Positions 4,819 to 18,452 are shown, counted from the first letter of the stretch. The stretch is 26,699 nt of DNA from an uncultured virus (IMG/VR IMGVR_UViG_3300025327_000020) (IMGVR_UViG_3300025327_000020), one strand, 5' to 3'. Program-made: numbers and translations. Notes: generated by a model not told the origin, from the letters alone.

Positions 4819-5600
4819 GAGTAGTTCTCACTAACCAAGACTTGACCGGCCAGGTACTTGACGCCTCCACACGACCGGACGGTCATGCCCGCGAGTCTCT
4901 GGTTCGGGGTTGCACGTTCGACCTCGGCACTCGTTTTGTGGGGGACATTCGCGGTACGGACTTCATAGGCAACACCGGCCCTGCTGATTGGCGAGCCGCC
5001 CAGACCTATAGTTGTTACTGGCGGGGCAATCAGAACCTCTCCGGCTCTCTGTGGCCCGCCGACATCGGGTCTCTACACCACGAGCCCGTGGGCACCATCA
5101 TCAGAGACAGGGTGGCCCTAGTCGCTGCTACTGCCAGGCCCAAGGTCATAGCCGTTGCTAGCTACGTGTTGGGGGGCGATTATGCCAGAGCCTCCTGGGA
5201 CACCTCCAAGACCTACTGGTGGGACGGGCTTACGGTCACGCAGAGGGAGAAACTGGCAGCAGCCTTCCGTCTGGTGTTCCAACCTTACCCTGGGTTGGCC
5301 GAGCGGTTTGAGGAGTTGGTCAAGGCACTCAAGGAGGGGACACCGCTATTCCAGGGCGCGCCCCTGGCGACGGACGTGTCGTGGCCGGACGGAGCTAGCA
5401 TTCATCTGGACGCTATGAACCTACCCGCTCTACCTGAGCCCAGCCGCTATGCGCTGGCCCGCTGGCTGGAGGCCCAAGCTGACTTGCAACAGCCCGCCCC
5501 CCATCACTGTTTTGTCTACTCTGCTCTACCTCCAATCGTGCGGCCCCTACCCCAACCTGATGACTGGCTGAACCCAGGCTGGCATTGGCGGGGGTACTAG
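4815..5600 (+). CDS. Hypothetical protein in the tail-fibre cassette
   Basis: 261-aa ORF with ATGA overlap to the upstream gene and AAGGAAG RBS. Confidence 0.7.
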   Translation: MRVVLTNQDLTGQVLDASTRPDGHARESLVRGCTFDLGTRFVGDIRGTDFIGNTGPADWRAAQTYSCYWRGNQNLSGSLWPADIGSLHHEPVGTIIRDRVALVAATARPKVIAVASYVLGGDYARASWDTSKTYWWDGLTVTQREKLAAAFRLVFQPYPGLAERFEELVKALKEGTPLFQGAPLATDVSWPDGASIHLDAMNLPALPEPSRYALARWLEAQADLQQPAPHHCFVYSALPPIVRPLPQPDDWLNPGWHWRGY

Positions 5601-5601
5601 G

Positions 5602-6978
5602 ATGAGCCGTAGCTGGCTACACGTAGGGGGCGGCTGGGAGCATGGCCCCATCCGCTATCTCTATTCCGCCAATGACACGCAGACAAAGACGTTCATCACA
5701 GGCCCCAACTGGAACGTAGGGGGGTCTGGCCCTCCCGCTCCTGAGAAGTCCACTAAGCGCAGTGGCTACTTCGCTCATCGGATGCTCGGCGGCGGTTTCT
5801 CGTCTGGCATTGACGCCCGCTGTGGCCATGTGTTCGCCCGCACCAAGGACTGGTTATTCTGGGTTGTCCCCGTGGCCATCATCGGCTTTGACACACCCCC
5901 AACTGTCGGCAATGATTACCTTGCTGCCCGTTGTACTGAGCATTGGGCACCGGCCACTGGGGACAAATACCTGGGTGTAGGTGTCGCTATCGTCTCGGCT
6001 GGCCCGCCCGCCACCTTCCAATTCACCATCCAGCGTTTCACCAACACTGGTGCCTTCGATGTTAAACTGGGCGGCAACAGTGCTACCTTCACAGCCGGGA
6101 CGACGGTACGCTATATCGTCCTGGCCCTGAACACAGCGGGCGGGACAGACAACTGCAAGCTATGGGTGGACGGGACGGCGGGAGCGGCTGTTACCTCCGG
6201 CACTGTTCGCACCTCTGGCCATCTCCTGCCTGACTCCCGAAAGGTTGCGGGCGCTAAGGGTGCTGATACTGGTATGCAAGTGGTGGCCGATGACTGGTGC
6301 AGCGCCGAGGGAGACGCTGAGGCCGACCGCCCAGGGCTGAATCTACGGACGATATGTTACCAGGCCCGCAAGAACGTCACGGGCGAGAACGCCTGGACGG
6401 GCTCGCACCTGGACGTGGATGACGAGAAGGACGCAGGCGTGGGGGATGCCAACACCGACACCAACGTTTGCACCCCTGGGGCCGCCGACCAGCTTGAGAT
6501 ATTCGGCTTTCCCGACCTGGTGGACGAGGCTGGACAGACAGCCACGGTGGAGGCCGTGCTGCTGTGCTGGGAGCAGGTCATATCGACCTTTAGGGGTGAA
6601 GGTTTTGCTCCTGCCTATGAGGGCCACTACCCCCACGCCCGCACTACCAGCAGCAGCCTGACCGACCTCAGCGGCGATTACGGTAGCGGCTATAATGCCA
6701 ATGGCACGCCTTCGCGGCTTTGGTTCTCCCGTCTGATGCGTACCACGCCGGAGGGCTCCGCCTGGACGCCGACCCTGTTCAACGCCCTCCAGGCTGGTCT
6801 GAAGTCGCGGAACACCGAGGAGATGGGGGAGTTCTATGCCATCCCCATTGGGGACTATATCGATGCTCCTGCCGATACGCCAACCCCACCTGGAGACCCT
6901 CTTTGGGAAGACCCACCGGCTGCGGCTGCGGTCAGTCTAGCCATCCCGCGTCGGATTAATACACTACTGAGAATGTAA
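5602..6978 (+). CDS. Putative virion/receptor-binding protein (possible lectin/LamG-like beta-sandwich)
   Basis: 458 aa, Gly/Thr/Ala/Trp-rich. YIVLAL...CKLWVDG...VVADDW resembles a LamG-like pattern (inference). Confidence 0.6.
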   Translation: MSRSWLHVGGGWEHGPIRYLYSANDTQTKTFITGPNWNVGGSGPPAPEKSTKRSGYFAHRMLGGGFSSGIDARCGHVFARTKDWLFWVVPVAIIGFDTPPTVGNDYLAARCTEHWAPATGDKYLGVGVAIVSAGPPATFQFTIQRFTNTGAFDVKLGGNSATFTAGTTVRYIVLALNTAGGTDNCKLWVDGTAGAAVTSGTVRTSGHLLPDSRKVAGAKGADTGMQVVADDWCSAEGDAEADRPGLNLRTICYQARKNVTGENAWTGSHLDVDDEKDAGVGDANTDTNVCTPGAADQLEIFGFPDLVDEAGQTATVEAVLLCWEQVISTFRGEGFAPAYEGHYPHARTTSSSLTDLSGDYGSGYNANGTPSRLWFSRLMRTTPEGSAWTPTLFNALQAGLKSRNTEEMGEFYAIPIGDYIDAPADTPTPPGDPLWEDPPAAAAVSLAIPRRINTLLRM

Positions 6979-14278: not shown

Positions 14279-15852
14279 TAAGAACAACCTCCTCCACAAT
14301 CAGGACACATAAAGCATGTACCGTCAGGCACCGACTCACTATGGTTACAAGCGGAGATAGACTCATCTACCTTGGCCCGAAGAACCTGCTTCTCCCTACA
14401 CCCATCACGGAACACTGTGACACCCTTGCAGCCTCTTGCCCATGCACGCTTATACGAGTTTAGTACATCATCTACTGTCGCAGCGTTGGGCATATTGATA
14501 GTCTTCGATACGGACTGGTCAACATGCTTTTGAAAGATAGCTTGGTGTTCTAGGTGCCACTTCCAATCTATCTCATGCGCTGTCTTAGGTCGAAACTCCG
14601 AGAATTTCAGTGTTGGGTTAATCTGCTCGTGCAACTGTGTACCGTCACCCATAGTCCGAACCCAAGAGTCAGAGAAATGTGGCTCAATCCCTGCGGAGCA
14701 ACCAGCAAGCAGCGAGATGCTGCCAGTTGGTGCAATAGCTGTCCTACACGCATTACGATAAAGAGTCCTCGTCTCCCCTTTGTAAGCAGGGGCAGGGCCC
14801 CGAACTCTGGCAAGACTAGCACTCGTTGAATCAGCCACCTTCTGTACTGTTGACATAACCTTACCCGCCAAGTCCAAAGCAGTCTGACTATCATACGGTA
14901 TTCTCAACTGCGCCAACATATCGGCCCAACCCATCACACCAAGGCCGAGCTTCCTAGTCAGACGCACAGCCTCGGTTATATCTTCGTGAGGGAACTGGTT
15001 ATGCTCAAGTATGTCATCGAGGAACTGAATAGCCGTGGCAACCGTGGCCTGTAGTTCAGTAAACTTGACACGACCATCATCAGCAAACTTGGACAAGTTT
15101 ATACTGCCCAAGTTACACGCCTCATTGTCCAGAAGGGGAATCTCACCGCACGGGTTAGTGCCTGTAAGTTTGCCCAACCACGGCGTAGGATTATCTCTTT
15201 CCGCAGCATCAATGAAATAACACCCTGGGTCTCCAGTTGCCCACGCTACCTCGGCCATAAGACCAAGTAACTTCTCGGCCTGTGTGCCCCCCACCATCAC
15301 CTCTTCCATGAACTTGTCTGTTAGTGCAACAGAAACATTGAAAGTCCGAAGACCATCGGGATTCACGGCCTTCATAGTGATAAACTCTTCAACATCAGGA
15401 TGGTCACAGGATATGATAGCCATCTGTGCGGCCTCTCGCTTGCCCGACTGGGTGACAACTTCGCCCAACGAGTTGAACATCCTGATAAATCCCACAGGGC
15501 CACCAGCGGTATTACCCGTGCCCAACACTGGGGCACCCTTGCCTCGCACTTCGGACAACACATACCCCACACCCCCTCCCCATTTCTGCACCAGCGCAGC
15601 TTTCTTTGCCACGTCCATGATACCAATCATGTCATCAGGAACGTCGAACTTGAAACAAGCGGACAGTGTACCTCTGCCTGTACCAGCATTGAAAAGGGTT
15701 GGACTGTTAGGGAGAAATTCTAAGTCTCGCATCATGCGATAGTAACTTGGATTGCCGAAGCTGACTCGTTGCAGCATCTCATCGGGTGTCTCTCTCTCCA
15801 TGAGATACCGTTTTTGGAGCACTAGCAAAGCATTGCCGTTGAAGTTGGACAC
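14278..15852 (-). CDS. nrdJ: Class II (adenosylcobalamin-dependent) ribonucleotide reductase
   Basis: Motifs FLPNSPTLFNAG, LSACF, TNPCGEIPL, ACNLGSINL, IAPTGSIS, SVSKTIN, KGVTVFRDG and C-terminal CxxCxxC. No beta-subunit gene is adjacent. Confidence 0.9.
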   Translation of the reverse strand: MSNFNGNALLVLQKRYLMERETPDEMLQRVSFGNPSYYRMMRDLEFLPNSPTLFNAGTGRGTLSACFKFDVPDDMIGIMDVAKKAALVQKWGGGVGYVLSEVRGKGAPVLGTGNTAGGPVGFIRMFNSLGEVVTQSGKREAAQMAIISCDHPDVEEFITMKAVNPDGLRTFNVSVALTDKFMEEVMVGGTQAEKLLGLMAEVAWATGDPGCYFIDAAERDNPTPWLGKLTGTNPCGEIPLLDNEACNLGSINLSKFADDGRVKFTELQATVATAIQFLDDILEHNQFPHEDITEAVRLTRKLGLGVMGWADMLAQLRIPYDSQTALDLAGKVMSTVQKVADSTSASLARVRGPAPAYKGETRTLYRNACRTAIAPTGSISLLAGCSAGIEPHFSDSWVRTMGDGTQLHEQINPTLKFSEFRPKTAHEIDWKWHLEHQAIFQKHVDQSVSKTINMPNAATVDDVLNSYKRAWARGCKGVTVFRDGCREKQVLRAKVDESISACNHSESVPDGTCFMCPDCGGGCS

Positions 15853-15914
15853 GGGTACAGTTATCCTTTCGATAAACTATTAGGCTATTGGCTCTCCGAG
15901 CGGGGGAGGACTCT

Positions 15915-15943
15915 ATTATACACCATCCCTCGTTGTTTGTCAA
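15915..15943 (-). promoter_or_regulatory. sigma70-type promoter for nrdJ
   Basis: TTGACA (15943-15938), 17-nt spacer, TATAAT (15920-15915). Confidence 0.9.
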
Positions 15944-15945
15944 GG

Positions 15946-16055
15946 GGTGGGGCCTACCACTCTCCTACCACCCACCCTTCGCCTCTGCTTCTCCTCAGTC
16001 ACCATTAGACTGCCTCAAGGCGTCACCAATACACAGAAGCGGTTTGATAGGCCCC
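15946..16055 (-). ncRNA. Unassigned ~110-nt long-hairpin RNA
   Basis: 11-bp terminal stem GGGGCCUAUCA/UGGUAGGCCCC followed by ACC. Inner stems are CGCUUCUG/CAGAGGCG, UAUUGG/CUAAUG, GAC/GUC and GCC-UUGA-GGC. It starts 10 nt after the tRNA-His CCA. Confidence 0.55.
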
Positions 16056-16065
16056 GATATTTATC

Positions 16066-16143
16066 TGGAGTAGGGGATGGGACTCGAACCCACAACTTGC
16101 TGAGTCACAGTCAGCCGGTCTACCATTTGACCGCTACCCCTAC
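16066..16143 (-). tRNA. tRNA-His(GTG), atypical
   Basis: Acceptor GTAGGGG/CCCCTAC, D stem GGTC/GACC, anticodon arm GCTGA-CTGTGAC-TCAGC, T arm GTGGG-TTCGAGT-CCCAT, and encoded CCA. Confidence 0.9.
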
Positions 16144-16147
16144 TTTT

Positions 16148-16229
16148 TGGTGGAGCCGGTGGGTGTCGAACCCACGTCCTGAGTACGTCCTTTTCAGGCT
16201 TTACTACTCAGTCGAACCCTCGCGGCCCC
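16148..16229 (-). ncRNA. Minimal tmRNA-like RNA (tRNA-like domain only, 82 nt, no tag ORF)
   Basis: GGGGCCG-CGAGGGUUCGAC-UGAGUA-GUAAAGCCUGAAAAGGACG-UACUCA-GGAC-GUGGG-UUCGACA-CCCAC-CGGCUCC-ACCA. It has G3.U70, A73, a stemless D loop ending UUCGAC, and the GGAC linker of tmRNA. Confidence 0.85.
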
Positions 16230-16230
16230 A

Positions 16231-16614
16231 TTAATAACTAGCGTAGTTACTCCACTTCGTAATATACTCGTTAGGAACTCGTTTCCTCACTCCTGGTCTT
16301 TTGCCGTAAGCAGGCTTTTTCCAGTAGCAGTCCCCGCACACCGACACCCACCTCCACGCTGTCAGATTTTGCTTATCCGCTTCTGCAGAATCGACGGTGA
16401 TGGCTGCCTGCCACTGCACCATGGGGCCGACGAACTCCTTGCCGCAGCAATAGCATTGTTCAGGGGGGGTGGTTCGTTGGTGCTTACCTCCACGGTTCAT
16501 GTCTTTTATCCATTCCTTTTCCTCCTCTTGGGACATAGTGGGATGAGTATGTAGTTCTTTAGTACATTGTCCACGAGTAAGAGTACACTTTCCAATTACT
16601 ATTCTATAAAACAT
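16231..16614 (-). CDS. Hypothetical Cys-rich protein
   Basis: ORF with CYCCG...VCGDC. Start is ATG16614 or TTG16620, and the stop lies 1 nt upstream of the mini-tmRNA. Confidence 0.6.
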   Translation of the reverse strand: MFYRIVIGKCTLTRGQCTKELHTHPTMSQEEEKEWIKDMNRGGKHQRTTPPEQCYCCGKEFVGPMVQWQAAITVDSAEADKQNLTAWRWVSVCGDCYWKKPAYGKRPGVRKRVPNEYITKWSNYASY

Positions 16615-17120
16615 TGGCAAGTAGGGCAGTGACGAACTTTATTATGAGTTTGTGTTTCCATCGTTGCCCACCTAATGTTACTTGGTTCATAATTACCCTG
16701 CCCATCTATGCGGTCTAGTCCTCCATCCGCCCAATCTGGTCTCCACCCTACATCAGAAAGGAAATTCGCAAAGCCGTTTTTTCCAAGCCAGCTATCGCAG
16801 ACTATGATTCCTCGCCCACCATAATGATGATAGGCAGGGTCGTTTGTCCTGTAGCATCTCGACCTCATACTTATCCAAGTATGATATTCTGTTGAAGTAG
16901 TTAATCCATGTTTGACAGCGAGGTTAATAGTAGGGTTTCCATGTCTGCGTATTCTCATGTGATGCTTGCTGCAATAACCATCGCAGAACGCTTTCTCTAG
17001 ACATTTTTCAATCTTGCAAAGAGGGCGACACTCGCGGGTACAAAATCTTTGATTATGTATATTTGGGGTAAAGTCTATTCCACATGACTCACAGCTTTTA
17101 TTAGCATATTCTTTCCCCAT
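16599..17120 (-). CDS. HNH endonuclease with N-terminal zinc fingers
   Basis: WISMRSRC...YGGRGIIVCDSW...LDRIDGQGNYEPSNIRWAT is typical of phage HNH proteins. Confidence 0.85.
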   Translation of the reverse strand: MGKEYANKSCESCGIDFTPNIHNQRFCTRECRPLCKIEKCLEKAFCDGYCSKHHMRIRRHGNPTINLAVKHGLTTSTEYHTWISMRSRCYRTNDPAYHHYGGRGIIVCDSWLGKNGFANFLSDVGWRPDWADGGLDRIDGQGNYEPSNIRWATMETQTHNKVRHCPTCQCFIE

Positions 17121-17122
17121 GT

Positions 17123-17866
17123 CTAGTATACCCTCAACGGCGTCGCGCCAAGATTCCTGAACTTCACCAGATACTCGAATATCCGCTCAAGCTCCTCCAC
17201 ATCCTTCTGGCAGTGGTCAACAATATATTTCATGGCCGTGCTATTGCCCTTCATTGCAGCGTTCCACACAGAGCCGATAAGACGCGTCTTGTTTGATTCA
17301 CCCAGGAGTGTTTCTCCGACGGCCTGTTGACGGTTGCTATGCATAGCCAGTTGGCTCCGTGCCGTATAGTACAAGTCCACATGTCGAATGTGAGATAATG
17401 GCGCGTGACCTGATACGAGCAGTCTTGTTTGCAGAAAGGGCAAATCAAAGCCAGTTCCATACCATGTGATGATGTAGTCATATTTCATCAACTCCTCACG
17501 GATTCTGTCCGCCACTGTTCCGTCCCCTTGTCGTCCCGCAACGAATGTCTTTGTGTTTCCACCGACATTCTTAACACATCCGCAAAGAATTTCTCCGATA
17601 CTCGCGTTGAGGTTGGAAGTCTCAAGGTCAAAAGTAGCGAAAGATTTGTTCTCCAATATCCACGCGTTTTTCGCCTTGTTCTCCTCTGCACGGAGCAGCT
17701 TCTTTGTCTCCTGTGCCTGCCATGTCTGCTCATCATATAGTGGTTCCTCTGTCACTGCCTGTCGGCGTACATTCTCCATGTGCCGCTTGCATTTCTGCGA
17801 ACAGTAGGTTTGGTTGTGTACTTGAGGCTCAAACGCAACCGAGCACTCATTACTTTGACAAATCAT
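17123..17866 (-). CDS. RNase H-like (DEDD, RNase_H_2/YprB-type) exonuclease with N-terminal zinc finger
   Basis: Motifs FDLETS, WYGTGFDLPFL, HVDLY and HCQKDV. Confidence 0.8.
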   Translation of the reverse strand: MICQSNECSVAFEPQVHNQTYCSQKCKRHMENVRRQAVTEEPLYDEQTWQAQETKKLLRAEENKAKNAWILENKSFATFDLETSNLNASIGEILCGCVKNVGGNTKTFVAGRQGDGTVADRIREELMKYDYIITWYGTGFDLPFLQTRLLVSGHAPLSHIRHVDLYYTARSQLAMHSNRQQAVGETLLGESNKTRLIGSVWNAAMKGNSTAMKYIVDHCQKDVEELERIFEYLVKFRNLGATPLRVY

Positions 17867-18452
17867 GCAGTTCCTCCGCGACCTTCAACGCCCGCTCCAA
17901 ATTAAACACTCGATGTAGACCTGGCTGCTTAGGGAGATGGACGTTGTATTGGTACGTTGGCATCACAACCTGGATACCGCTGTCCAATAACTCCTGTGCG
18001 TACTTCGGGCTGTCATCTATCATCACGTTAATCTTCAGCAGCTTGCAGTGTTCGGATTTCTCTTCACCCTTCTTCACCCGTATGATGAAAGCATTGGGCA
18101 TCCCATAGTTCTCCAACCACTGATGAGTCTGCTTGGCAGAATTGCCGCCGTCTCTCCTCGTGATGAACACGATAGGGTGCTTGTTGTATATCTCTCGTAG
18201 ATAATCCATGTTGTACAGGGGCTCAACACCTAGCCAAAAATTGCCATTGTCCAGTGTGAGTATGGACTTCCACGTTGCCTCTATTATCCCACTATGTGCG
18301 TACCACTCATCCCACTTCCACGATTCCACATCCATGTAATCGACAATCGGTGCCTCATCGGGGAATAATCTATTTGCGCGGGTGGAGAACGCCTTGACAA
18401 AGTTACAAACTACTCCGTCCATGTCGCAGCCTATGATACTCAAGGCTTCCAC
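17850..18452 (-). CDS. HAD-family 5'(3')-deoxyribonucleotidase (NT5C-like)
   Basis: Motifs CDMDGVVCNF, VFITRR, EKS, MIDDSP and YN. Confidence 0.85.
   Translation of the reverse strand: MEALSIIGCDMDGVVCNFVKAFSTRANRLFPDEAPIVDYMDVESWKWDEWYAHSGIIEATWKSILTLDNGNFWLGVEPLYNMDYLREIYNKHPIVFITRRDGGNSAKQTHQWLENYGMPNAFIIRVKKGEEKSEHCKLLKINVMIDDSPKYAQELLDSGIQVVMPTYQYNVHLPKQPGLHRVFNLERALKVAEELHDLSK

What the first reader, a model, noticed from the sequence alone, without database searches (positions are those of the whole stretch)
16148..16229. Phage-encoded mini-tmRNA: intact tRNA-like domain with the whole mRNA/tag domain missing
Seen in sequence: an 82-nt RNA with both tmRNA ends. It has the acceptor stem GGGGCCG/CGGCUCC with a G3.U70 wobble, A73 and encoded CCA, a stemless D loop CGAGGGUUCGAC, the GGAC linker and a canonical T arm. 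Where tmRNA normally has roughly 270 nt of pseudoknots and tag ORF, helix 2 (UGAGUA/UACUCA) is simply capped by CCU-GAAA-AGG, a GNRA tetraloop. There is no anticodon loop and no D stem, so it is not a tRNA-Ala. Established: G3.U70/A73 specify AlaRS charging, SmpB binds the elbow of the tmRNA tRNA-like domain, and tag-less tmRNAs are known from jakobid mitochondria. Inference: the RNA could be (i) an SmpB decoy that shuts down host trans-translation, or (ii) a rescue RNA that enters stalled ribosomes and accepts the peptide without adding a degradation tag. Either would help a phage facing tRNA- or mRNA-cleaving defences. The intact pairing and tetraloop cap argue for selection rather than decay.
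Basis: partly seen in the sequence, partly recalled or inferred. Interest (0 to 1): 0.93.

Follow-up and report, generated by a model that had tools for sequence, protein, structure and literature searches.

The report
Phage tag-less mini-tmRNA gene
This uncultured phage carries a real 82-base gene that copies only the alanine-accepting, tRNA-like end of the bacterial ribosome-rescue RNA (tmRNA); one such RNA is already published from mycobacteriophage DS6A, and it probably competes with the host's rescue-and-tag system.

Summary
Window 16229..16148 (minus strand) is an 82-nt RNA gene. It matches both ends of the Rfam tmRNA model (61.7 bits, E 4.7e-22), with 310 interior positions replaced by 19 nt. 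It does not score as a tRNA or as mt-tmRNA.

It sits in a replication-gene operon of a phage with no detected integrase, 4 nt upstream of the phage's only tRNA (His).

It is not a new kind. Mycobacteriophage DS6A has an 83-nt 'TLD only' tmRNA with the same architecture and the same acceptor stem (PMC4131195, PMC11915505).

I found more than 100 further 61-92-nt examples in uncultured viral contigs. Helix 2 covaries strongly (91.5% paired versus 40% after shuffling). G3.U70 and A73 were kept in 32 of 32 cases where my search did not force them.

Of 59 carrier records, none encodes SmpB, an ArfB-type release domain or Pth, and 5 encode a tyrosine integrase.

The best reading is an alanine-charged competitor of host tmRNA for SmpB and stalled ribosomes, which blocks tagging. 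Function is untested.

This scan has already reported the same kind on other DNA at least seven times.

Verdict: real, and a new member of a known but barely described kind.

The parts
16148..16229 (-). Mini-tmRNA gene (tRNA-like domain only), 82 nt including the encoded CCA
   Evidence: RF00023 61.7 bits, E 4.7e-22, model 1-374 with 310 interior positions deleted. Identical in G001 and L002-L004.
16223..16229 (-). Acceptor stem, 5' strand GGGGCCG (RNA positions 1-7); G3 is the G of the G3.U70 pair
   Evidence: Read from sequence. The 3:70 pair is G.U in 32 of 32 family members found without specifying the acceptor.
16211..16222 (-). Unpaired D-loop analogue CGAGGGUUC plus GAC (RNA 8-19). The GAC faces the GGA of the linker, as in the Rfam tmRNA consensus.
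   Evidence: Alignment to RF00023; parse.
16180..16210 (-). Helix 2 (UGAGUA/UACUCA, 6 bp) enclosing a 6-nt/3-nt internal loop and a CCU-GAAA-AGG hairpin (RNA 20-50). This takes the place of the pseudoknots and tag reading frame.
   Evidence: Folds. Helix 2 positions 1-5 are 91.5% paired across 85 family members versus 40.3% after shuffling partners.
16176..16179 (-). GGA-C linker (RNA 51-54); the A is invariant in the family
   Evidence: Invariant column A53, not forced by the search pattern. Linker types.
16159..16175 (-). T arm GUGGG-UUCGACA-CCCAC (RNA 55-71)
   Evidence: alignment. The T stem is 100% paired, with double-sided changes in 3 of 5 pairs.
16148..16158 (-). Acceptor 3' strand CGGCUCC, discriminator A73 and encoded CCA (RNA 72-82)
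   Evidence: A73 in 32 of 32 unforced cases.
16066..16143 (-). tRNA-His (GUG), 4 nt downstream on the same strand; the only tRNA found in the phage
   Evidence: ARAGORN. RF00005 41.9 bits. It is the only RF00005 match in the 43.2-kb record G001.
16231..16620 (-). 129-aa ORF of unknown family. Its stop codon ends 1 nt before G1 of the mini-tmRNA, so the RNA lies at the 3' end of the replication-gene transcript.
   Evidence: no PHROG or Pfam match. No promoter-like or terminator-like site between this ORF and the RNA genes.
15915..15943 (-). Promoter-like site with a perfect consensus (TTGACA-17-TATAAT) downstream of the RNA genes and upstream of the ribonucleotide reductase gene. It marks the end of the unit that holds the two RNA genes.
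   Evidence: 12 of 12 matches. This is a consensus match only.

Best explanation
Window 16229..16148 (minus strand) is a functional gene for a tmRNA reduced to its tRNA-like domain. It is the same kind of RNA as the 'TLD only' tmRNA of mycobacteriophage DS6A.

Proposed mechanism, all inferred:
- It is transcribed at the end of the phage's replication-gene operon together with tRNA-His.
- It is cut out by the host's tRNA-processing enzymes.
- It is charged with alanine by host AlaRS through G3.U70 and A73.
- It is bound by host SmpB at the elbow and at the GAC/GGA base of helix 2, and delivered by EF-Tu to ribosomes stalled on broken mRNAs.

The phage supplies no SmpB, so the RNA must compete with host tmRNA for SmpB and for stalled ribosomes. 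It has no resume codon or tag frame, so every ribosome it engages escapes SsrA tagging. The net effect is to suppress the host's rescue-and-tag pathway during infection.

Shown here: the gene, its family, selection on its structure, and selection on the alanine identity marks. Inferred: expression, charging, SmpB binding and the effect on the host.

My odds that it is a real, selected TLD-only tmRNA are about 0.95. The confidence below is for the competitor mechanism.
For: Identity:
- RF00023 matches at 61.7 bits with both ends and the interior deleted.
- The tRNA and mt-tmRNA models do not match it.

Precedent:
- DS6A carries an 83-nt element at 28478-28560 with the same layout and the same acceptor stem.
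- PMC4131195 (passages read) lists it as 'TLD only'. It says a similar molecule, chargeable or not, strongly inhibits tmRNA, perhaps by titrating SmpB (citing Mao et al. 2009).
- PMC11915505 (passages read) says the DS6A form inhibits endogenous tmRNA when expressed in E. coli.

Family:
- A pattern that specified only the D-loop analogue and the T arm gave 35 viral loci, of which 32 are minis.
Of these, 111 pass a filter of 7 of 7 acceptor pairs and at least 4 of 5 T-arm pairs. They comprise 84 distinct sequences of 61-92 nt.

Selection on structure:
- Helix 2, which was not used for selecting sequences, is 91.5% paired versus 40.3% (maximum 47.2%) in 1000 shuffles, with 4-6 pair types per position.
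- On a model-based alignment of 94 sequences, 97.6% of cells are paired versus 69.7% shuffled and 43-55% with partners slid. 17 of 22 pairs show changes on both sides.

Selection on charging:
- G3.U70 and A73 are kept in 32 of 32 minis found without specifying the acceptor, while pairs 4-7 vary with compensation. Three of the 32 are this same phage.

Competition rather than added capacity:
- 0 of 59 carrier records of at least 10 kb encode SmpB.

Not an integration relic:
- The near-identical record G001 (91% complete) has no tyrosine integrase.
- 5 of 59 carriers have one, including 3 of the 17 that are at least 90% complete.
Against: - Nothing here shows that the RNA is made, charged or bound by SmpB.
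- The key inhibition experiment (Mao et al. 2009) could not be read. I know it only through two citing papers, which describe it slightly differently.
- If titrating SmpB were enough, and the cited work says charging was not needed, the strict retention of G3.U70 and A73 is unexplained. That pushes the mechanism toward the ribosome, where the outcome could as well be productive rescue.
- The fate of a ribosome holding peptidyl-Ala-TLD with no message is unknown. A second round by host tmRNA could still add the tag.
- The element is not conserved in the phage's relatives. In 77 loci around homologues of the neighbouring exonuclease (29-81% identity), only one had any match to my model, and that one is off-type. 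It is therefore an accessory gene.
- The single-sequence minimum-free-energy fold does not give the T arm.
- My family set was collected with sequence patterns that fix parts of the D-loop analogue, T loop and acceptor end, so conservation at those positions is circular.
Confidence: 0.5

Rival explanations
1. Tag-free ribosome rescue that helps the phage. The charged mini-tmRNA, with host SmpB, takes the nascent chain from stalled ribosomes. The peptidyl-Ala-RNA is then released by drop-off plus peptidyl-tRNA hydrolase, or by an ArfB-type factor. Ribosomes are freed without the 10 or so extra codons of tag translation, and phage proteins are not marked for proteolysis.
For: - The alanine identity marks are strictly kept (32 of 32), as expected if peptidyl transfer matters.
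- TLD-only tmRNAs persist with a nuclear SmpB in jakobid mitochondria and are thought to help there (PMC11915505, passage read).
- 19 of 111 family loci have a tRNA within 100 nt, a lower bound, and here tRNA-His lies 4 nt away. That fits a translation-support cassette.
Against: - No carrier brings its own release route: 0 of 59 encode an RF-1/ArfB-type domain and 0 of 59 encode Pth.
- None brings SmpB, so no rescue capacity is added beyond what host SmpB allows.
- The only reported experiment found inhibition of tmRNA (PMC4131195, PMC11915505).
Confidence: 0.25
2. A pure SmpB sponge. The RNA only soaks up SmpB in the cytoplasm and need be neither charged nor reach the ribosome.
For: [quoted passage not shown] The SmpB-facing GAC/GGA base of helix 2 and the elbow are conserved.
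Against: A sponge has no need for G3.U70, A73 or a CCA end. Yet G3.U70 and A73 are invariant where not forced, and CCA is encoded in 55 of 111 loci. A G-C pair at 3:70 would stabilise the stem and is never seen in that set.
Confidence: 0.1
3. A tRNA-like RNA that does something outside trans-translation, for example a decoy or substrate for host enzymes that act on acceptor ends, or a processing signal for the operon.
For: - It sits directly between an ORF stop codon and a tRNA, so its excision shapes the 3' end of the upstream mRNA.
- One relative (L296) has a different tRNA-like RNA, with G3-C70 and no UUCGAC, at the same place after the exonuclease gene.
Against: The features conserved across the family are exactly the tmRNA-specific ones (UUCGAC, GAC/GGA, no anticodon arm, G3.U70). 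They score as tmRNA, not tRNA.
Confidence: 0.1
4. A relic: a decaying copy of a captured host ssrA gene, or an attachment-site remnant, with no function.
For: Phages often integrate into ssrA and carry its 3' end (PMC10865867, PMC9004378, passages read). The element is absent from relatives of this phage.
Against: - Both halves are present and pair perfectly.
- The deletion is clean, and the family of more than 80 distinct sequences shows compensatory changes in every helix.
- No integrase was found in G001.
- In three bacterial genomes that hold both a full tmRNA and a mini, the variable acceptor and T-stem positions differ, so the mini is not a recent deletion of the resident gene.
Confidence: 0.03

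Closest known systems
'TLD only' (CDS-less) tmRNA of Mycobacterium phage DS6A (JN698994, 28478-28560; tmRNA Website tmID 11587; PMC4131195, PMC11915505, both citing Mao et al. 2009)
   Same: - Both are phage-borne and about 80 nt (83 versus 82 nt).
- Both tmRNA ends are joined by a short helix 2 with a small hairpin, and there is no tag frame.
- The acceptor stem is identical, GGGGCCG/CGGCUCC with G3.U70 and A73.
- Both lie among replication genes; in DS6A the element sits just upstream of a DNA polymerase III gene.
   Different: - The DS6A D-loop analogue reads GGUCGAC rather than GUUCGAC, and its linker is GCAC rather than GGAC.
- CCA is not fully encoded in DS6A.
- DS6A scores below the Rfam threshold (43.2 versus 61.7 bits).
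- DS6A is temperate, with an integrase (PMC10865867 table, passage read). No integrase was found for this phage.
- The two phages are unrelated at the sequence level.
Mitochondrial tmRNA of jakobids and oomycetes (Rfam RF02544 mt-tmRNA), and the ~65-bp CDS-less plastid tmRNAs of Mallomonadaceae (PMC11915505)
   Same: tmRNA reduced to the tRNA-like domain with no tag reading frame, working with an SmpB that is encoded elsewhere.
   Different: These are organellar and vertically inherited, and they serve as the cell's own rescue RNA. The RF02544 model gives no match to this element at E<=10.
Full-length one-piece tmRNA (SsrA, Rfam RF00023), including the phage-encoded copies (mycobacteriophage Bxz1 group, Bacillus phage G; PMC4131195)
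   Same: Both tRNA-like halves match, covering 39 of 41 conserved consensus positions by my count.
   Different: About 290 nt are missing: all four pseudoknots, the resume codon and the tag frame.
Engineered tmRNA TLD fragments used for structural work (TLD-SmpB crystals; alanyl-TLD-SmpB-EF-Tu on the ribosome, PDB 4ABR/4ABS as cited in PMC3968760)
   Same: The same minimal design: the two ends closed by a short helix 2. These fragments show that such an RNA can bind SmpB and EF-Tu and enter a stalled ribosome.
   Different: They are laboratory constructs. I did not compare sequences.
tRNA-Ala
   Same: G3.U70, A73, the T arm and the CCA end.
   Different: The element has no D stem and no anticodon arm. 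The tRNA model does not match it.

Membership tests
tmRNA (Rfam RF00023), tRNA-like domain | Match to the covariance model above its gathering score, covering both the 5' and 3' ends | tested here: met
   61.7 bits versus a gathering score of 47; model positions 1-374. It scores 53.1 bits when only 301 nt are scanned.
tmRNA (Rfam RF00023), tRNA-like domain | 7-bp acceptor stem with G3.U70, discriminator A73 and a CCA end (alanine identity) | tested here: met
   Read from sequence. Charging itself was not tested.
tmRNA (Rfam RF00023), tRNA-like domain | No D stem; conserved UUCGAC; GAC/GGA non-Watson-Crick base of helix 2; 5-bp T arm with a UUCGA-type loop | tested here: met
   alignment and parse.
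Full tmRNA (functional SsrA) | mRNA-like domain: resume codon, tag reading frame ending in a stop codon, pseudoknots | tested here: not met
   Only 31 nt lie between the GAC and GGA, and they fold into helix 2 plus a hairpin. A GCC-UGA in the interior is chance: GCN+stop occurs in 5 of 85 family interiors versus 5.6 expected from shuffles.
Phage TLD-only tmRNA (DS6A type) | Both TLD halves contiguous, joined by a short capped helix 2, total about 60-100 nt, no tag frame | tested here: met
   82 nt. A model built from the window's sequence and structure finds DS6A full length at 48.3 bits, and finds 94 of 97 family sources.
Phage TLD-only tmRNA (DS6A type) | Encoded by a phage genome | tested here: met
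   The window encodes a virion protein, endolysin, DNA polymerase, ribonucleotide reductase and HNH endonucleases. The nearest record is a 43.2-kb viral contig.
Phage TLD-only tmRNA (DS6A type) | Inhibits host tmRNA function / binds SmpB | not testable with these tools
   Known only from citing statements in PMC4131195 and PMC11915505. The primary paper is not held.
mt-tmRNA (Rfam RF02544) | Match to the covariance model | tested here: not met
   No match at E<=10 in G001, which holds the identical element.
tRNA (Rfam RF00005) | Cloverleaf with D arm and anticodon arm; match to the model | tested here: not met
   The only RF00005 match in G001 is tRNA-His. ARAGORN makes no call here.
ssrA-derived attachment site (attP) | The 3' part of ssrA next to an integrase gene | tested here: not met
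   Both halves are present. No PF00589 match in G001, which is 91% complete. Serine recombinases were not searched.

The most novel reading that the evidence does not exclude
Phage mini-tmRNAs may be a widespread counter-measure aimed at the host's ribosome-rescue system. An alanine-charged RNA would use host SmpB to enter ribosomes stalled during infection and take the nascent chain without adding a degradation tag. That would shield phage proteins, or disable a host response that depends on tmRNA-SmpB. If so, it would be a viral RNA that reprogrammes translational quality control rather than decoding. The strict retention of G3.U70 and A73, together with the lack of any phage SmpB, fits this reading, but nothing tests it.
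Probability: 0.25. Interest if true: 0.7.

Novelty: new member of a known kind. Interest (0 to 1): 0.45.

Why it matters
Trans-translation is found in nearly all bacteria and is a drug target. A small natural RNA that competes with tmRNA would be a ready-made probe of that pathway.

In the library I could search, the literature names one phage example, DS6A, and one heterologous experiment. The data here show that the form is common and diverse in uncultured phages, is under selection for structure and alanine identity, and is missed by the usual annotation tool: ARAGORN called 7 of 111, and DS6A's copy is unannotated in GenBank.

That makes a concrete question testable with simple constructs. 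Do phages switch off, or bypass, SsrA tagging during infection, and does charging matter?

For this window alone the gain is modest. It is one more member, from an uncultured groundwater phage with no known host.

Tried and rejected
- **Expression:** The look-up of sequencing runs listed no RNA holder for window 15600-17200. All six listed runs held next to none of its words.
- **Isolated relatives:** there was no megablast match of the region in 50,697 phage records. blastn of the 82 nt found only a 29-nt T-arm match in a Streptococcus phage. The DNA polymerase is at most about 25-28% identical to isolates. No host could be inferred.
- **Host through the tmRNA 3' half:** a phylum-wide pattern search failed on a parameter, and I did not pursue it after obtaining handles.
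- **RNA-repair context:** the PHROG 'polynucleotide kinase' hit at 17850-18452 is an NT5C 5'-nucleotidase by Pfam. The idea was dropped.
- **One-codon tag (GCC-UGA in the cap):** it is not conserved, occurring in 5 of 85 interiors versus 5.6 expected.
- **GNRA cap as a conserved feature:** only 5 of 39 tetraloop caps are GNRA.
- **Phage-encoded partners:** SmpB, an RF-1/ArfB-type domain and Pth were each found in 0 of 59 carrier records. Many of these records are fragments, but the 17 that are at least 90% complete also score 0.
- **Syntenic conservation:** close relatives found with the exonuclease protein alone were only the same phage. A profile of 28 homologues gave 80 loci, 3 of them the same phage. 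The other 77 gave one off-type match to my model. Rfam found nothing in the 12 closest.
- **Bacterial genomes:** These were mostly chance matches in GC-rich coding DNA or parts of full tmRNAs. Only 2 passed my strict filter, and Rfam confirmed 3 minis among the 9 loci I checked.
- **MAFFT alignment A1:** it misplaced the 5' acceptor register, so it was not used for pair counts.
- **Mao et al. 2009:** the paper is not held.
- **Literature on the breadth of the phage family:** four searches found only PMC4131195 and PMC11915505. Subscription journals are not covered.

Full report
**What is there.** On the minus strand at 16229..16148 lies an 82-nt sequence that the Rfam tmRNA model (RF00023) matches end to end at 61.7 bits, against a gathering score of 47, with E 4.7e-22 for the window. 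The model's 310 interior positions are replaced by 19 nt. By my count from that alignment, 39 of the 41 upper-case consensus positions are matched.

The parts are as follows:
- an acceptor stem GGGGCCG/CGGCUCC with G3.U70, A73 and an encoded CCA
- an unpaired D-loop analogue, CGAGGGUUC, followed by GAC
- a 6-bp helix 2, UGAGUA/UACUCA
- an asymmetric internal loop
- a 3-bp stem capped by GAAA
- the GGA-C linker
- a T arm GUGGG/CCCAC

ARAGORN does not call it. The tRNA model hits only the neighbouring tRNA-His, and the mitochondrial tmRNA model gives nothing.

There is one weak point. The minimum-free-energy fold of the single sequence pairs the D region with the T-arm 3' strand, and its z-score is only -2.8. 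The tRNA-like fold therefore rests on comparison with related sequences.

**Context.** The window is phage DNA. It encodes a virion protein, an amidase endolysin, DNA polymerase, an RNase H-fold exonuclease, an NT5C nucleotidase, an ERCC4 nuclease, a Rad52-like protein, a Cas4-like exonuclease, HNH endonucleases and a ribonucleotide reductase.

The RNA gene starts 1 nt after the stop codon of a 129-aa ORF at the end of the minus-strand replication module. It is followed after 4 nt by tRNA-His. A perfect-consensus promoter-like site for the reductase gene comes next.

The nearest held record, G001 (43.2 kb, 91% complete), carries the identical element. It has no full-length tmRNA, no tyrosine integrase, no SmpB, and no tRNA other than tRNA-His. 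Four other assemblies are 100% identical over about 2 kb here, so the short form is not an assembly collapse. The phage is very distant from any isolate, and I could not infer a host.

**It is a known kind.**
- Hudson, Lau and Williams 2014 (PMC4131195, passages and table 2 read) list 'Mycobacterium phage DS6A (TLD only)'. They state that a similar molecule, chargeable or not, strongly inhibits tmRNA, perhaps by titrating SmpB, citing Mao et al. 2009.
- The 2025 tmRNA database paper (PMC11915505, passages read) repeats this and adds CDS-less plastid tmRNAs.
- I located the DS6A element at 28478-28560. It is 83 nt, scores 43.2 bits (below the Rfam threshold), is unannotated in GenBank, and lies just upstream of a DNA polymerase III gene.
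- It has the same layout as the window's element and the same acceptor stem.
- I could not read Mao et al. 2009.
- Four literature searches found no other paper on phage TLD-only tmRNAs in the held library.

**It belongs to a large family.**
- A pattern fixing only UUCGAC, a 20-50-nt gap, GGACG and the T arm found 35 viral loci. Three were false: two tRNAs and the interior of one full-length tmRNA. The other 32 are minis whose acceptor stems lie outside the pattern.
- I searched the 34 held viral records behind these 35 loci (one was not held). In 28 of them the Rfam model scores a 72-100-nt match above threshold, and 3 more minis score below it. All 7 records that are at least 90% complete hold a match.
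Of these, 111 pass a filter of 7 of 7 acceptor pairs and at least 4 of 5 T-arm pairs, giving 84 distinct sequences of 61-92 nt.
- ARAGORN calls only 7 of these 111.
- CCA is encoded in 55 of 111.
- A tRNA lies within 100 nt in 19 of 111, a lower bound because some flanks are short.

**Selection.**
- Helix 2 was not used to choose sequences. Its first five pairs are 91.5% canonical, versus 40.3% (maximum 47.2%) in 1000 partner shuffles, with four to six pair types per position.
- I built a covariance model from the window's sequence and structure. It found 94 of 97 sources full length, including DS6A.
- On that alignment 97.6% of cells are paired, versus 69.7% shuffled and 43-55% when partners are slid. 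17 of 22 pairs show changes on both sides. This alignment is fitted to the model, which favours the structure.
- In the 32 minis found without specifying the acceptor, 3:70 is G.U in 32 of 32 and position 73 is A in 32 of 32, while pairs 4-7 vary with compensation. Three of the 32 are this same phage.
- The cap is not conserved. Short members have only a helix 2 hairpin, and only 5 of 39 tetraloop caps are GNRA.
- A possible one-codon tag (GCC-UGA) is chance.

**What the carriers do and do not encode.** I examined 59 carrier records of at least 10 kb, 17 of them at least 90% complete.
- 5 have a tyrosine integrase, 3 of these among the 17.
- None has an RF-1/ArfB-type domain.
- None has Pth.
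- None has SmpB.

The RNA must therefore work entirely with host factors, and it must share the host's SmpB with the host's tmRNA.

**Distribution.**
- The element is accessory in this lineage. In 77 loci around homologues of the neighbouring exonuclease, only one matched my model. That one (L296) is a different tRNA-like RNA with G3-C70 and no UUCGAC.
- No full-length tmRNA sits at that place in the 12 closest loci.
- In bacterial genomes the same pattern mostly gave chance matches. A few minis occur in metagenome-assembled genomes.
- In three such genomes that also hold a full tmRNA, the variable positions of the mini differ from the resident gene, so the mini is not a fresh deletion of it.

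**Mechanism.** The following is established knowledge, taken from passages read in the reviews PMC8012679, PMC3985003 and PMC3968760:
- AlaRS charges the tRNA-like domain (TLD).
- SmpB fills the place of the missing anticodon arm.
- EF-Tu delivers the complex to an empty A site.

From this, and from the retention of the alanine marks together with the absence of a phage SmpB, I infer a charged competitor of host tmRNA that engages SmpB and stalled ribosomes without offering a tag frame (confidence 0.5).

The alternatives are productive tag-free rescue (0.25), a pure SmpB sponge (0.1), some other tRNA-like role (0.1) and a relic (0.03). None of the functional steps is shown.

**Earlier notes of this scan.** The scan has already reported this kind on other DNA at least seven times, each time naming DS6A as the closest known. 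I reached the same reading from my own calls before I looked those notes up.

**Verdict.** The element is real and under selection.

Noticed in passing
window 16066-16147 (-): The phage's only tRNA (His, GUG) has U at the discriminator position and an A just 5' of G1. That gives a possible A-1:U73 pair where bacterial tRNA-His, as I recall, usually has an encoded G-1 opposite C73.
   Followed up: no
window 15915-15943 (-): A perfect-consensus sigma-70 promoter-like site (TTGACA, 17 nt, TATAAT; 12 of 12) lies just upstream of the ribonucleotide reductase gene, directly after the two RNA genes.
   Followed up: no
L296 6859-6947 (+): A 48%-identical relative of the exonuclease gene is followed, at the place where the window's lineage would have its mini-tmRNA, by an 89-nt tRNA-like RNA. 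It has a G3-C70 acceptor, a UUCAACU T loop, an encoded CCA, no UUCGAC and no GGAC. ARAGORN does not call it.
   Followed up: partly
L173, L181, L185, L192, L202, L205-L207, L214, L219, L225, L226, L238, L240, L251, L258, L263, L266, L275 (the pattern match in each; e.g. L173 2001-2072): About 19 genomes labelled Eremiobacterota, Baltobacteraceae, Vulcanimicrobiota or unclassified bacterium share a 72-73-nt tRNA-like RNA. It has a G3.U70 acceptor, a UCGA-UGGUG-UCGA D hairpin and a variable stem-loop in place of a normal anticodon arm. ARAGORN gives Ser, Ile, Asp or nothing for different members, and Rfam tRNA scores 29.6 bits for L185. Three of the 5 genomes I checked also have a normal full-length tmRNA.
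   Followed up: partly
G083:C14:72494-72559 and G083:C10:392994-393059 (L287, L288): One Opitutales metagenome-assembled genome holds two nearly identical 66-nt mini-tmRNAs on different contigs, besides its full-length tmRNA.
   Followed up: no
G031 (record behind L035), 5551-6608: Next to a 100-nt mini-tmRNA (5963-6062, 60.4 bits) there are two weaker, longer tmRNA-model matches (5551-5849 at 31.6 bits; 6353-6608 at 15.6 bits). This may be an array of tmRNA-like RNAs.
   Followed up: no
JN698994 28478-28560 (L041 1501-1583): The published DS6A TLD-only tmRNA carries no feature in the GenBank record. The stretch between gp33 and gp34 is blank.
   Followed up: yes
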